Positions 4,007 through 52,843 of a DNA stretch of 64,000 bases are shown here, in pieces (the stretch's first letter is position 1; each line of letters starts with the position of its first letter). The position numbers and the translations under genes are program-made. Under the pieces are notes generated by a model, which saw nothing but the letters and a program-made list of their open reading frames with translations, was not told the DNA's origin and did not search any database. This DNA is from Candidatus Latescibacterota bacterium (GTDB lineage Bacteria > Latescibacterota > UBA2968 > GCA-2709665): NCBI GenBank assembly GCA_963662665.2, contig CAXXJS010000011.1, forward strand, positions 11,916 through 75,915, read 5' to 3'.

Positions 4007-4198
4007 CCTTGATTCGTTATTTTTCCCGGACGTAAAACCGAATATATGCAGGTAGATAAAGGCGATTTAACGGCTGATTACCAGGATACACCAGGTCACC
4101 GGACGTGAACTGAAAAAACGTCCTTCTGGACGACAGTTACGCCCCGCTTCAGGGGATTTCCTCGCGTCGCCGCAGTTGCTGTTTTATTCAAATTGGGA
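4007..4198 (+). mobile_element. MITE family A, copy 1 (192 bp, TTAA target-site duplication)
   Basis: Aligns over its length with 41076-41266 and with 51721-51898 plus 52655-52667. TTAA flanks it at 4003-4006 (overlapping the lepA stop) and 4199-4202. Confidence 0.85.
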
Positions 4199-41075: not shown

Positions 41076-41266
41076 CCTTGATTCGCAATTCTTCGGGGAA
41101 GTAAAACCGAATATGTGCAAGTAGATAAAGGCGATTTAACTTCTGATTACCAGGATACACCAGGTCACTGGACGTGAACTGAAAAAACGTCCTTTTGGAC
41201 GACCGTTACGCCCCGGTTCAGGGGTTTTCGTCGCGTCGCATAGTTGCAGTTTTATTCGGTTTGCGG
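41076..41266 (+). mobile_element. MITE family A, copy 2 (191 bp, CTAA duplication); intact empty intron target
   Basis: CTAA at 41072-41075 and 41267-41270. Contains TTCGCAA|TTCTTCGGGG, the exact junction the intron occupies in copy 3. Confidence 0.88.
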
Positions 41267-51652: not shown

Positions 51653-51720
51653 GAGTATTTCCGAAACAAAGAAGCCGAGGCTGTTTCTGCCCCGGCCGAC
51701 AAGTTCTGCATAGGGTTTAA

Positions 51721-52667
51721 CCCCAATACGAAGAAAACAGCAACTCGGCGACGCGACGAAAACCCCTGAAACGGGGCGTAACGGTCGTCAAAAAGGACGT
51801 TTTTTCAGTTCACGTCCAGTGACCTGGTGTATCCTGGTAATCCGAAGTCAAATCGCCTTTATCTAATTGCACATATTCGGTTTTACTTCCCCGAAGAAGT
51901 AGAGTCGAGATGTGGCGCGGTGGTTTAGGAGTGGCCTGTCTGTTCCCGCCCCTTTCGTCTGGCGGTGCCTCAATAGCCCCTCCCTGCTCCGTTTCCACAT
52001 CCCGCTCGTCGAACCGGACGTGCGGAGTTACCGCATCCGGCTCTCCGACGGACATCGCCTTCAGGTACACACTGCCCGATCTGCCCGGACAGCTTCACCT
52101 GAAACCTTAGCTTGATCTGGAGTCGCCTCGTCTTATTCTGGAGGAGGTTATAGGCTTGCGCCACTCTCCCGACAGTTGTCCCCTTCACAAGCACATCCGA
52201 AGTCAGGCCCCTTTCCTCCGCCGGCGTTACCCGGCATCACAGGTACTACGAGCCTGTCCGCCACCCCATACGGCCCGGCCTGGCCCTCACGGGCTTCCGG
52301 TTGGTGGCTCTCCACCACCGCTGGGGCTTCCCGTGTTGCGTCGGATCTCCTTGTATGCGTGCCTCCGCCATTACCCCGGCGGGACCGTTGGGTGCTCTCG
52401 TTGCCTGCTTCCCCAACGACGGCGGCCTTCCCCGTTCGCAAGCCGGGTCGGCTCCCGCATTACCCTTTTCGAGGCCTGCTCAGCGTTTACTCACGTTTCA
52501 GCCCACATACTCGCCGAGTCGCCTGGCGACCCTCTACACCGGAGGCTTCGGAGATGTCGTTACCTACGTCTCCGCTCCGATTGCTTCCGACTGTGGCAAC
52601 ATCTGTCGGGTGGGACTCTCACCCACTGAAGTTCCGCGCCTTTTCACGGCGCACTTGCGAATCAAGG
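51721..52667 (-). mobile_element. MITE family A, copy 3 (191 bp in two pieces: 52655-52667 and 51721-51898), TTAA duplication, interrupted by a group II intron
   Basis: TTAA at 51717-51720 and 52668-52671. Removing 51899-52654 restores a colinear 191-bp copy. Confidence 0.88.
51899..52654 (-). ncRNA. ORF-less group II intron (756 nt)
   Basis: 5' GTGCG; domain V GAGCCGGATGCGGTAACTCCGCACGTCCGGTTC (52011-52043); domain VI ending CTCGACTCTAC; EBS1 TTGCGAA (52435-52441) in a hairpin loop; only a short RT-like remnant in domain IV. Confidence 0.93.
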
Positions 52668-52672
52668 TTAAT

Positions 52673-52843
52673 TCAGTTCTCATATCCATTCTTGAGAAAA
52701 GGCGGATCTTCCTTGAATCCCTGCTCTCCCTTCTTCCTCTCTTCCGCGATCCAGGCGGCATATTTCTCGTCCTGCTCCTTTATCCCTTTCTTTCGTCCCT
52801 TCTCAGACCTGCGCCTGGCAAATGCCTCATACGCAGATCCCAT
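52673..52843 (-). CDS. Small hypothetical protein (56 aa), possibly the remnant of a longer membrane-anchored ORF
   Basis: GGAGG RBS then MGSAYEAFARRRSEKGRKKG...WIAEE...FKEDPPFLKNGYEN*; hydrophobic in-frame sequence upstream. Confidence 0.45.
   Translation of the reverse strand: MGSAYEAFARRRSEKGRKKGIKEQDEKYAAWIAEERKKGEQGFKEDPPFLKNGYEN

What the first reader, a model, noticed from the sequence alone, without database searches (positions are those of the whole stretch)
51717..52671. ORF-less group II intron inserted in a multicopy MITE, with EBS1 matched to the MITE and an empty site still available
Seen: a 756-nt group II ribozyme (GTGCG...domain V...ACTCTAC, minus strand) sits between nt 13 and 14 of a 191-bp repeat, and excising it restores the repeat exactly. 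A domain I hairpin (CCCG-GC-TTGCGAA-CGGG, 52431-52447) carries an EBS1 perfectly complementary to the 5' exon end TTCGCAA. Copy 2 keeps the identical unoccupied junction (41088/41089), while copy 1 has a diverged IBS1 (TTCGTTA). Known: group II introns can home into IS elements (RmInt1 in ISRm2011-2), and ORF-less introns borrow maturases in trans. Inference: this intron targets a non-autonomous, intergenic, multicopy 'safe haven'. Both MITE ends and the TTAA duplication remain, so the 947-bp composite might also be moved by the MITE's transposase. That would give an RT-less ribozyme DNA-based mobility, analogous to an IStron but built from two non-autonomous parts.
Basis: partly seen in the sequence, partly recalled or inferred. 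Interest (0 to 1): 0.9.

Follow-up and report, generated by a model that had tools for sequence, protein, structure and literature searches.

The report
ORF-less group II intron homing into a MITE
A small self-splicing intron that has lost its own reverse transcriptase has copied itself into eight copies of a miniature transposon in this sponge-associated bacterium, almost certainly by borrowing the enzyme of three full-length relatives rather than by riding on the transposon.

Summary
Window 51899-52654 (minus strand) is a 756-nt group II ribozyme without an ORF. It lies 13 nt inside a 191-bp MITE that is flanked by a TTAA duplication.

- **Copies.** The genome holds 8 such introns, differing at 0-2 of 756 nt. 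All sit at the same MITE position at 8 different loci. It also holds 3 full-length 1975-nt relatives with intact RT/maturase genes and 62 empty MITE copies.
- **Targeting.** Occupancy follows base pairing with EBS1. Six of 17 MITEs with the perfect IBS1 (TTCGCAA) are occupied, 2 of 3 with TTCGCTA, and 0 of 50 with other variants.
- **Against a composite.** The MITE halves beside the introns differ at 6-22 of 175 positions. For most, the closest relative is an empty MITE. The copies therefore arose by separate retrohoming into old MITEs, not by DNA transposition of an intron-MITE unit.
- **Relatives.** Same-genus Latescibacterota genomes carry the same ORF-less lineage in multiple identical copies, with changed EBS1 loops that match other targets. 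In one species the target is the same MITE family.

This closely parallels the Thermosynechococcus ORF-less introns. The new aspects are the host phylum and the target inside a MITE terminal repeat. No splicing or mobility was observed directly.

The parts
51899..52654 (-). ORF-less group II intron, 756 nt (5' GTGCG ... CTAC 3')
   Evidence: Rfam D1D4-4 89.7 bits; Intron_gpII 35.7 bits; 8 copies at 99.87-100% identity in the genome; fold z -3.8
52435..52441 (-). EBS1 (TTGCGAA), in the loop of the hairpin at 52431-52447
   Evidence: Exact complement of the last 7 nt of the 5' exon. It is the most variable loop in the 18-sequence family alignment. It co-varies with the exon across relatives.
52462..52466 (-). 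Candidate EBS2 (AGGGT), pairing with ACCTT at -14 to -10 of the 5' exon
   Evidence: Inferred by eye from the variable block at columns 295-300 of A1 and the exons. Co-variation is only partial, so this is tentative.
52491..52628 (-). 5' part of domain I matched by Rfam group-II-D1D4-4
52050..52200 (-). Domain IV remnant with no ORF. The first part still aligns to the start of the RT gene of the full-length intron.
   Evidence: Alignment to the full-length copy. The region is conserved in all 18 ORF-less relatives.
52011..52043 (-). Domain V (GAGCCGGATGCGGTAACTCCGCACGTCCGGTTC)
   Evidence: The stem pairs are kept in 17-18 of 18 relatives.
51899..52007 (-). Long domain VI; unpaired A at 51905, 7 nt from the 3' splice site
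   Evidence: Consensus fold; coordinates checked
52655..52667 (-). MITE 5' end (13 nt: CCTTGATTCGCAA). This is the terminal inverted repeat and also the IBS1 and most of the candidate IBS2, whose 5' A is the last base of the flanking TTAA (52668).
51721..51898 (-). MITE 3' part (178 nt), ending in the inverted repeat CGTATTGGGG
52668..52671 (.). Target-site duplication TTAA (upstream copy)
   Evidence: a single site in relatives and in run X6
51717..51720 (.). Target-site duplication TTAA (downstream copy)
41076..41266 (+). Empty MITE copy 2 with the perfect target CCTTGATTCGCAA|TTCTTCGG, flanked by CTAA/CTAA
4007..4198 (+). Empty MITE copy 1 with the non-matching IBS1 TTCGTTA, flanked by TTAA/TTAA
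52673..52843 (-). Small conserved ORF (56 aa) directly upstream, on the same strand as the intron
   Evidence: Translation; 82-89% nucleotide identity in 6 same-genus genomes
51663..51697 (-). Terminator-like hairpin of the small ORF. The MITE plus intron sits between the stop codon and this hairpin.
   Evidence: conserved next to the stop codon in relatives that lack the MITE

Best explanation
**What it is.** This is a non-autonomous, ORF-less group II intron. Its home site lies 13 nt inside the terminal inverted repeat of a 191-bp MITE.

**Proposed mechanism (inferred)**
1. The intron RNA is transcribed. At this locus that would be read-through from the small upstream ORF on the same strand.
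2. It is bound and spliced by the RT/maturase made by one of the 3 full-length sister introns in the genome.
3. The resulting ribonucleoprotein reverse-splices into any MITE copy whose end reads ACCTT-GA-TTCGCAA|T. Recognition is by EBS1 (7 bp) and probably EBS2 pairing.
4. The borrowed RT then copies the intron into DNA. The protein has no endonuclease domain, so priming would have to come from a nascent DNA strand, as in RmInt1.

**Shown here**
- The ribozyme anatomy.
- 8 near-identical copies at one MITE position.
- EBS1/IBS1 complementarity, and the link between occupancy and IBS1.
- Intact RT genes in sister introns.
- MITE halves that are much older than the introns.
- The same lineage with re-matched EBS1 loops in other species.

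**Inferred, not shown**
- Transcription, splicing, action of the protein in trans, and the priming route.

**The MITE itself.** It is a DNA transposon relic with a 4-bp YTAA duplication. It arrived at this locus before the intron.
For: **Ribozyme**
- Rfam D1D4-4 at 89.7 bits.
- Domains V/VI at 35.7 bits.
- The consensus fold shows domain V and a bulged A in domain VI.
- Fold z-score -3.8.

**Copies**
- 8 copies of 756 nt differ at 0-2 positions.
- All follow CCTTGATTCGC[A/T]A and precede TT[C/T]TTC of a MITE, at 8 loci with different flanks.

**Targeting.** 71 MITE copies had a scorable 5' end.

| IBS1 | Occupied by the ORF-less intron |
|---|---|
| TTCGCAA | 6 of 17 |
| TTCGCTA | 2 of 3 |
| all other variants | 0 of 50 |

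- Fisher p = 0.0019 for perfect IBS1 against the rest.

**Order of events**
- MITE 3' halves of occupied copies differ at 6-22 of 175 columns, median 13.5 over 28 pairs.
- The nearest relative of an occupied MITE is an empty one in 5 of 8 cases. Differences are 0 for the C40 copy and 3 for C23 and C37. Two cases are tied and one has an occupied nearest relative.

**Helper protein**
- 3 full-length introns of 1975 nt are 95-96% identical to intron nt 1-450 and 606-756.
- Each has an open 463-codon frame.
- The protein has RVT_1 plus GIIM, scores 354 bits on TIGR04416 against a cut-off of 300, and carries a YADD motif.
- No other group II RT matched in the genome: 3 matches among 9 candidates.

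**Comparative evidence**
- Of 25 ORF-less relatives with a readable loop in 8 other genomes, 18 pair with their own exon at 7 of 7 positions (G-U allowed), 3 at 6, and 4 at 5 or fewer. With this genome's TTGCGAA there are 9 different EBS1 words.
- Two copies in G009 sit at the same position of the same MITE family (variant TTCGTCA), with EBS1 TGACGAT.
- Identical multi-copy sets occur in G001: 5, 3 and 3 copies.

**Precedent**
- ORF-less T. elongatus introns are mobilised in trans and have diverged into EBS families (PMC2882425; passages read).
Against: **No direct evidence of activity**
- No splicing, lariat or mobility was seen.
- The two RNA libraries laid (X19, X20) held only intron pieces 90-95% alike. 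They held no ligated-exon joint and almost nothing of the unique flanks.

**No intermediate allele**
- No allele with the MITE but without the intron was found at this locus.
- The only alternative allele seen lacks both elements (X6 contig).
- The order 'MITE first' therefore rests on sequence divergence alone.

**Helper introns do not match their own exons**
- The 3 full-length helper introns pair with their own exons at only 5 of 7 EBS1 positions as assembled.

**Alternative for the near-identity**
- Gene conversion could in principle explain why the introns are so alike.

**Weak structural support and assembly limits**
- Few compensatory changes were found: 8 of 201 predicted pairs.
- The genome is a 66-contig metagenome bin with 5.4% contamination. 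Which 5' flank belongs to which 3' flank depends on the assembler.
Confidence: 0.85

Rival explanations
1. Composite DNA mobility. The 947-bp MITE-plus-intron unit is cut and pasted, or copied, by the MITE's transposase. That would be how occupied MITEs came to lie at several loci.
For: - Both MITE ends and the TTAA duplication are intact around the composite.
- The 13 nt left outside the intron include the whole recognisable 10-bp inverted repeat.
- The genome holds many DDE transposases. Among them is a group of 16 near-identically scoring matches of an IS1380-family element, which also makes 4-bp NTAA duplications in the two copies checked.
- At this locus the only other allele seen lacks the MITE and the intron together: a skip of 951 nt with 4 shared letters.
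Against: - No two occupied MITEs share their MITE half. There are 6-22 differences in 175 nt, against 0-2 in 756 nt of intron.
- The nearest relatives of occupied copies are mostly empty copies.
- Occupancy tracks the IBS1 variant, as RNA-guided insertion predicts.
- The MITE shows no similarity to the IS1380-type element beyond a loosely similar end. No parent transposon was identified.
Confidence: 0.04
2. Immobile relic. The introns entered the MITE family long ago, or entered one MITE that then spread. They are now splicing-only or dead, and gene conversion keeps them alike.
For: - No activity was observed.
- The review literature states that ORF-less bacterial introns are rare and mostly non-mobile derivatives (PMC4424553; passages read).
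- The tree of the 5' ribozyme part mixes ORF-less and full-length copies of the same genome, so sequence exchange between copies does occur.
Against: - Conversion tracts would have to stop exactly at the intron ends in 8 loci while the adjoining MITE sequence stayed 3-13% diverged.
- The catalytic parts are intact and conserved, and variation is concentrated in the EBS loops.
- The same pattern of identical multi-copy sets with matching EBS1 recurs in other species with other targets.
- Relatives lack the MITE at this locus, and a roughly 98% identical strain lacks both elements here. The insertions at this locus are therefore recent.
Confidence: 0.08
3. Assembly artefact. A repeated intron sequence was threaded by the assembler into MITE copies where it does not belong.
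For: - The genome is a short-contig metagenome bin.
- The EBS1 loops of the three full-length copies look swapped between contigs. This suggests that repeats were mis-threaded at least there.
Against: - Eight different 5' flanks and eight different MITE 3' halves abut the intron ends directly. Such junctions lie within read length.
- A contig of an independent run (X5, record 20) crosses the intron/MITE 3' junction with 1 other letter in 476.
- Closed genomes of relatives show the same kind of insertions, including in the same MITE family.
Confidence: 0.02

Closest known systems
ORF-less TeI3 introns of Thermosynechococcus elongatus, mobilised in trans by TeI4 RTs (Mohr, Ghanem and Lambowitz 2010, PMC2882425; passages read)
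   Same: - ORF-less derivatives share one domain IV deletion.
- They coexist with closely related RT-encoding introns.
- They outnumber those introns (8 against 3 here).
- Most sit in non-coding sites with good EBS/IBS pairing.
- They have diverged into families with different EBS sequences.
   Different: - Here the host is an uncultured, sponge-associated Latescibacterota.
- The protein lacks an endonuclease domain.
- The whole ORF-less set of this genome is aimed at a single site inside a MITE's terminal repeat.
- The ORF-less lineage is shared by many species of a genus, not only within one genome.
- Nothing has been tested experimentally.
RmInt1 of Sinorhizobium meliloti homing into ISRm2011-2 (recalled; related papers seen only in the search listing: PMC5894124, PMC4615759)
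   Same: - The RT/maturase has no endonuclease domain.
- The home site lies inside a multi-copy transposable element, so the element acts as a harmless landing pad.
   Different: - RmInt1 carries its own ORF and targets an autonomous IS (recalled: within its transposase gene).
- Here the invader is ORF-less, and the target is the 13-nt terminal repeat of a non-coding MITE.
- Membership of RmInt1's class D was not tested.
IStrons (group I intron fused to IS200/605 parts; recalled, and one passage in PMC4853749)
   Same: A self-splicing ribozyme is physically combined with transposon ends.
   Different: - IStrons move as one unit by DNA transposition and are group I.
- Here the two parts have separate histories, and the ribozyme is group II and moves through RNA.
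Group II introns next to REP elements in Pseudomonas putida KT2440 (Tobes and Pareja 2006, PMC1525189; one table row read)
   Same: A group II intron is associated with short dispersed intergenic repeats.
   Different: - There, only 2 of 9 intron copies are at REPs, and the intron encodes its protein.
- Here, 8 of 8 copies sit at one nucleotide position of a MITE.

Membership tests
Group II intron ribozyme | Conserved 5' end GUGYG and 3' end AY | tested here: met
   GTGCG ... CTAC; invariant in 18 relatives
Group II intron ribozyme | Domain I sequence and structure profile | tested here: met
   Rfam group-II-D1D4-4 at 89.7 bits, cut-off 49
Group II intron ribozyme | Domain V hairpin with AGC triad and 2-nt bulge, followed by domain VI with a bulged A | tested here: met
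   - Intron_gpII scores 35.7 bits, E 4.6e-5. This is below the cut-off of 40 because of a long insertion in domain VI.
- Domain V is folded and conserved, and an unpaired A lies 7 nt from the 3' end.
Group II intron ribozyme | EBS1-IBS1 pairing with the 5' exon | tested here: met
   7 of 7 Watson-Crick pairs; co-varies in relatives
Group II intron ribozyme | Self-splicing or protein-assisted splicing with lariat formation | not testable with these tools
   RNA contigs gave no ligated-exon joint. Contigs cannot show absence.
ORF-less group II intron mobilised in trans (T. elongatus TeI3 type) | No ORF in domain IV, with remnants of the ORF ends | tested here: met
   The 756-nt intron aligns to the full-length copy up to the first codons of the RT gene and again from just after its end.
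ORF-less group II intron mobilised in trans (T. elongatus TeI3 type) | Closely related intron with an intact RT/maturase in the same genome | tested here: met
   3 copies, 95-96% identical ribozyme parts, open frames without stops; TIGR04416 at 354 bits
ORF-less group II intron mobilised in trans (T. elongatus TeI3 type) | Several near-identical copies at sites that pair with the EBS | tested here: met
   8 copies; 6 with a perfect IBS1 and 2 with one mismatch
ORF-less group II intron mobilised in trans (T. elongatus TeI3 type) | Demonstrated mobility when the protein is supplied in trans | not testable with these tools
   Needs a plasmid retrohoming assay
MITE (non-autonomous DNA transposon) | Short, non-coding, many dispersed copies | tested here: met
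   191 bp; 77 BLAST rows, 71 copies with a 5' end
MITE (non-autonomous DNA transposon) | Terminal inverted repeats | tested here: met
   CCTTGATTCG against CGAATTGGGG: 7 of 10 complementary, and 10 of 10 if G-T is allowed. This is short and imperfect.
MITE (non-autonomous DNA transposon) | Target-site duplication and empty orthologous sites | tested here: met
   - The 4 flanking bases are identical on both sides in 27 of 52 copies.
- Among the 23 copies with TAA on both sides, the fourth base agrees in 22.
- The site is empty in 6 of 6 relatives examined and in a run X6 contig.
MITE (non-autonomous DNA transposon) | A parent transposon with the same ends that supplies the transposase | tested here: inconclusive
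   - No longer element with these ends was found (a noisy scan).
- An IS1380-family element gives the same kind of 4-bp NTAA duplication in the two copies checked. Its ends are only loosely similar, and it shares no internal similarity with the MITE.
IStron-like composite (ribozyme and transposon ends moving as one DNA unit) | Copies at different loci share both the ribozyme and the transposon parts as one unit | tested here: not met
   Introns differ at 0-2 of 756 nt, while adjoining MITE halves differ at 6-22 of 175. Nearest relatives are mostly empty MITEs.
Class C (IIC) group II introns | Insertion just after a terminator or attC stem-loop, with a short (3-4 nt) IBS1 and no EBS2 | tested here: not met
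   - The 7-nt EBS1/IBS1 pairing co-varies.
- The site lies 13 nt inside the MITE with no hairpin upstream.
- The closest solved RTs are nevertheless IIC RTs (6ar1, E 1.2e-53).
- The class-C features listed are recalled.
Endonuclease-less RT lineages (such as class D, RmInt1) | Protein with RT and maturase domains but no DNA-binding/HNH endonuclease domain | tested here: met
   Pfam finds only RVT_1 (residues 111-332) and GIIM (355-422) in 456 aa. The class itself (D, E, F or other) was not determined.

The most novel reading that the evidence does not exclude
**Long-lived dependent lineage**
- In this Latescibacterota genus a non-autonomous ORF-less group II intron lineage has persisted through speciation as a dependent of RT-encoding introns, much as SINEs depend on LINEs.
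- It keeps one ancestral domain IV remnant.
- It exchanges its 5' ribozyme part with the local full-length introns.
- It repeatedly re-aims its EBS loops at short dispersed repeats.

**Possible specialisation on transposon ends**
- Part of the lineage may be specialised on nucleotide 13 of IS1380-type terminal repeats. Examples are the MITE in this genome and in G009, and what looks like the end of an IS1380-type element in another species (judged by eye against this genome's copy).
- If so, the intron would split the transposase's recognition end. It could then act as a brake on the MITE or IS, making it a parasite that disarms another parasite.
Probability: 0.3. Interest if true: 0.7.

Novelty: new member of a known kind. 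Interest (0 to 1): 0.45.

Why it matters
[quoted passage not shown] The one well-studied proliferating case is in a single cyanobacterium.
- **A second natural system.** Here the non-autonomous form outnumbers its helpers, in an uncultured phylum. It is shared by many species, which gives about nine natural EBS1/target pairs for studying how group II introns are retargeted.
- **Nesting of non-autonomous elements.** A MITE's terminal repeat is the landing pad. This shows how one non-autonomous element can use another as a harmless, self-multiplying home.
- **A testable question.** Does an insertion 13 nt from the end disable the MITE's transposition?
- **For annotation.** RT-based intron finders miss these elements. 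The domain V/VI Rfam model also scores them below its cut-off.

Tried and rejected
**Rfam at a loose threshold.** A TPP riboswitch match (19.9 bits, cut-off 54.3) and plastid domain V models lie inside the intron. I rejected them as chance matches or sub-matches.

**Parent transposon of the MITE**
- A pattern scan for a parent with the MITE's ends gave 337 end-like sites and no convincing pair. It was too noisy to use.
- BLAST of the MITE against the IS1380-type element found only chance words.

**Orientation relative to neighbouring genes.** I tried this for all 9 occupied loci by raw ORFs. High G+C gives ORFs on both strands, so no conclusion was drawn. Only the window locus is described.

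**EBS3 or delta pairing with the first 3' exon base.** Checked by eye only. The result was inconsistent and is not claimed.

**RNA evidence**
- Runs X19 and X20 hold 6-7% of the sampled words. Their contigs are 90-95% alike, cover the intron almost exclusively (X20 also leaves trace depth on the downstream flank) and show no ligated-exon joint.
- Contigs cannot show absence, so this says nothing about splicing.
- No allele with the MITE but without the intron was seen at this locus.

**Intron class (D, E, F and so on).** Not assigned, because no labelled reference set was available.

**Structure prediction, protein homology searches and complex prediction.** Not used, because the protein's family was clear from profile searches.

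**Literature**
- Three full-text searches found no paper describing a group II intron inside a MITE.
- The two best candidates (PMC4853749, PMC6053426) were read at the matching passages. They mention both elements separately.
- The library lacks most subscription journals, so this is not proof that no such report exists.
The supplementary figures of PMC2882425 (family alignments and trees) and the additional files of PMC1525189 (which REP sites hold the intron) could bear on the comparison and were not seen.
Full report
**1. What is in the window.** Read on the minus strand, 51899-52654 is a 756-nt sequence beginning GTGCG and ending CTAC.
- Rfam's group-II-D1D4-4 model matches 52491-52628 at 89.7 bits (cut-off 49, E 2e-18).
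- The domain V/VI model Intron_gpII matches 51899-52045 at 35.7 bits. This is below its cut-off of 40, E 4.6e-5 for the 1.2-kb stretch. The alignment shows a normal domain V and a domain VI lengthened by a large insertion.
- Domain V is at 52011-52043. An unpaired A lies 7 nt from the 3' end, at 51905.
- The RNA folds better than all 20 shuffles, z = -3.8.
- There is no ORF. Domain IV is a stub of about 150 nt.

**2. The repeat around it.**
- The 13 nt upstream (CCTTGATTCGCAA) and the 178 nt downstream join to give a 191-bp element flanked by TTAA on both sides.
- Two intact copies lie in the window.
  - Copy 2 (41076-41266, flanks CTAA/CTAA) has the identical unoccupied junction.
  - Copy 1 (4007-4198, flanks TTAA/TTAA) has TTCGTTA there.

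**3. The repeat is a MITE.**
- BLAST of copy 2 against the whole genome (4.86 Mb, 66 contigs) gave 77 rows.
- The consensus of 54 full empty copies keeps high conservation exactly between the flanking TAA motifs. It ends in CCTTGATTCG ... CGAATTGGGG.
- In 52 copies with both ends found, the four flanking bases are identical on the two sides in 27. Among the 23 copies with TAA on both sides, the fourth base agrees in 22: C/C 12, T/T 9, G/G 1. About half would agree if the two sides were independent (my estimate). This is a 4-bp target duplication, mostly YTAA.
- At the orthologous place, 6 of 6 same-genus genomes examined (G003, G005, G007, G008, G009, G010) have the stop codon of a small conserved ORF followed directly by its terminator hairpin. 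They have no MITE.
- A 3768-nt contig of run X6, about 98% identical in the flanks, joins 51716 to 52668. It skips 951 nt, with 4 letters shared by both sides.
- The MITE, now with the intron in it, therefore sits between the stop codon (52673-52675) and the terminator-like hairpin (51673-51697) of a 56-codon ORF on the same strand. This gives a plausible source of transcription.

**4. Copies of the intron.**
- The genome holds 8 copies of the 756-nt intron. Five are identical, two share one change, and one has another change. Pairwise differences are 0-2.
- It also holds 3 copies of a 1975-nt full-length relative. That relative is 95-96% identical to intron nt 1-450 and 606-756.
- Two distant partial hits are also present.
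- All 8 short copies lie after CCTTGATTCGC[A/T]A and before the rest of a MITE, at 8 loci with unrelated outer flanks.
- One full-length copy (contig C61) is at the same MITE position. One (C24) is in an inverted MITE variant whose end forms a perfect hairpin. One (C16) is at a unique site that resembles a MITE end.

**5. The helper.**
- Each full-length copy has an open frame of 463 codons without stops.
- The 456-aa product has RVT_1 and GIIM domains, and nothing after residue 422 that could be an endonuclease.
- It scores 354 bits on TIGR04416, group II intron RT/maturase, cut-off 300. It carries YADD.
- Its closest solved relatives are group II RTs (6ar1, E 1.2e-53).
- No other relative of this protein was found in the genome: 3 matches among 9 candidates.
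- The short intron still aligns to the region around the RT start codon. In other group II introns this region is the protein's main binding site (recalled). Action in trans is inferred, not shown.

**6. RNA-guided targeting.** EBS1 (TTGCGAA, 52435-52441) is the exact complement of the last 7 exon bases.
- Of the 77 BLAST rows, 71 MITE copies have a scorable 5' end. The 6 dropped rows lack that end or stop before position 100.

| IBS1 | Copies | Occupied by the short intron |
|---|---|---|
| TTCGCAA | 17 | 6 |
| TTCGCTA | 3 | 2 |
| other variants | 50 | 0 |

- The one remaining copy, TTCGATT, holds the full-length intron.
- Fisher's test for perfect IBS1 against the rest (6/11 against 2/51) gives p = 0.0019.
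- Eleven perfect sites remain empty.
- A candidate EBS2 (AGGGT, 52462-52466) can pair with ACCTT at -14 to -10. The corresponding block varies among relatives and partly follows their exons. I judged this by eye and regard it as tentative.

**7. Retrohoming or composite transposition.** If the intron-MITE unit had moved as DNA, occupied copies would share their MITE halves.
- They do not. Over 175 aligned columns the 28 pairs differ at 6-22 positions, median 13.5. The introns differ at 0-2 of 756.
- The nearest relative of an occupied MITE is an empty MITE for 5 of 8. Differences are 0 for C40, 3 for C23 and C37, 9 for C8 and 14 for C10.
- For 2 of 8 (C50, C28) the nearest is a tie between an empty and an occupied copy.
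- For 1 of 8 it is another occupied copy: the window copy has 6 differences from C37 and 7 from an empty copy.
- The C23 copy shares its rare TTCGCTA variant and subfamily with an empty copy. It is at least 17 differences from every other occupied copy.
- The simplest reading is eight separate, recent insertions into old, already diverged MITEs.
- Composite movement is not mechanistically excluded, because the outer 13 nt contain the whole recognisable inverted repeat. Nothing in this genome requires it.

**8. The lineage in other genomes.**
- The closest records for the protein are Candidatus Latescibacterota MAGs (91% and 86% identity).
- The runs holding the locus are largely coded. Those labelled in clear are sponge metagenomes.
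- The short intron, including its domain IV stub, matches in 13 of 14 other genomes of the genus and in 3 of 7 genomes of other genera of the family. It matches in 0 of 19 genomes of the neighbouring family.
- Whole-length ORF-less homologues were fetched from 8 other genomes as 28 loci. Many are identical within a genome; G001 has sets of 5, 3 and 3.
- In 25 loci with a readable EBS1 loop, the loop pairs with its own 5' exon at 7 of 7 positions (G-U allowed) in 18, at 6 in 3, and at 5 or fewer in 4. One of the last group is a boundary problem next to another intron end.
- With this genome's TTGCGAA there are 9 different EBS1 words.
- Two G009 copies sit at the same position of the same MITE family (TTAACCTTGATTCGTCA|TTATTC), with EBS1 TGACGAT.
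- Others sit in another short repeat (G001 B) or after ATCCATG.
- In the 18-sequence alignment, domain V and most of the core are invariant. The EBS1 and candidate EBS2 loops are the most variable blocks.
- The consensus fold has 201 pairs, 8 with compensatory changes. The family is too close-knit for a strong co-variation test.
- Ten full-length relatives from two named Latescibacterota records pair with their exons at 7 of 7 positions in 9 cases and at 6 in 1.

**9. Comparison with what is known.**
- The pattern is that of the Thermosynechococcus elongatus introns. There, one early ORF deletion was followed by parallel proliferation of ORF-less and ORF-containing forms. Families arose with different EBS sequences, and mobilisation by a relative's protein in trans was shown in E. 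coli (PMC2882425; passages read).
- The review by Zimmerly and Semper says ORF-less introns are rare in bacteria and nearly always accompanied by related protein-coding introns. It says derivatives seem not to persist long (PMC4424553; passages read).
- Homing into an insertion sequence is known for RmInt1 (recalled).
- Association with REP repeats is listed for 2 of 9 P. putida introns (PMC1525189; one table row read).
- My three searches found no report of a group II intron inside a MITE (passages of two candidates read).
- I file this as a new member of a known kind. Three aspects appear new to me: the phylum, a target inside a MITE's terminal repeat, and persistence of one ORF-less lineage across a genus.

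**10. Limits.**
- No splicing or mobility was observed. The RNA libraries gave only pieces of related introns.
- The genome is a metagenome bin.
- The intron class was not determined.

Noticed in passing
L001 (G000:C61), L002 (G000:C24), L003 (G000:C16); intron nt 212-219: The EBS1 loops of the three full-length introns look swapped. C61 and C24 carry TTTTGGA but follow TTCGATT. C16 carries AATCGAA but follows TTCGGAA. Each pairs at 5 of 7 positions as assembled and at 7 of 7 if exchanged (three of those pairs are G-U in one case). Five of the 19 differences between the copies lie in this loop. Full-length relatives from two other Latescibacterota assemblies pair normally (9 of 10 at 7 of 7). 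Assembly mis-threading, 212 nt from the junction, is the likeliest cause.
   Followed up: partly
L022 (record OZ250150.1), compared with G000:C10:121083-122783 (L144): A full-length relative sits in CCTGAATAATTCA|TGAATTGTCACGGATTGCAG. By eye, these exons closely match one end of this genome's IS1380-family element (CCTGACCTATTCA|TGAATCGTCAGGGATTGCAG), which would put the intron 13 nt inside that element's end. That element is 1701 bp and gave 16 near-identically scoring DDE matches. Its transposase scores 387 bits on NF033539. In the two copies checked it makes 4-bp duplications (TTAA, ATAA). Position 13 of such terminal repeats may be the ancestral home of the lineage.
   Followed up: partly
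Alignment A1, columns 65-142, 373-399, 417-443, 493-525, 565-591 (copies from G009, G011, G016): Small palindromic insertions of about 25-80 nt, built on GCCTGCCTG...CAGGCAGG, have entered several peripheral loops of the ORF-less introns in some species. This looks like a tiny repeat family nested inside the intron.
   Followed up: no
Tree of intron nt 1-200 plus 226-440, 24 sequences: ORF-less and full-length introns are interleaved. Starred branches force at least 3 changes of the label, and the full-length copies of this genome group with its ORF-less copy and that of G006 (support 100/99). Yet all ORF-less copies share one domain IV stub. This suggests exchange of 5' ribozyme parts between the two forms within genomes.
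   Followed up: partly
G000:C24:8105-10290 (L002): A full-length intron lies in a MITE that is inverted relative to the intron. The MITE's end reads as a perfect hairpin, CCTTGATTCG...CGAATCAAGG. The target word is therefore present on the opposite strand of this variant.
   Followed up: no
MITE consensus; for example window 41076-41266: All three mismatches between the two 10-nt terminal repeats are G-T compatible on the strand that is sense for the intron. The ends could therefore pair fully as RNA. The MITE also carries two internal hairpins followed by T runs. Whether the MITE is transcribed or structured as RNA was not examined.
   Followed up: no
G000:C9:10029-10323; C30:42476-42723; C36:43131-43446; C61:175179-175358: MITE copies lie head to tail or inserted into one another, sharing the TAA at the joint.
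   Followed up: no
G000:C4:30674-31150 and 8 similar places: A second multi-copy IS is present. In one compared pair the shared stretch is 1641 bp, with ends CCTAGGAGTCTGCGCCGCAGGA. It carries a DDE_Tnp_1 transposase, and nine places gave near-identical matches of 71-72 bits. Its ends are unrelated to those of the MITE.
   Followed up: no
window 51716/52668, run X6: A roughly 98% identical strain in another study's run lacks both the MITE and the intron at this locus. Contigs of that run also show empty MITE copies of the CGTAA type elsewhere.
   Followed up: partly
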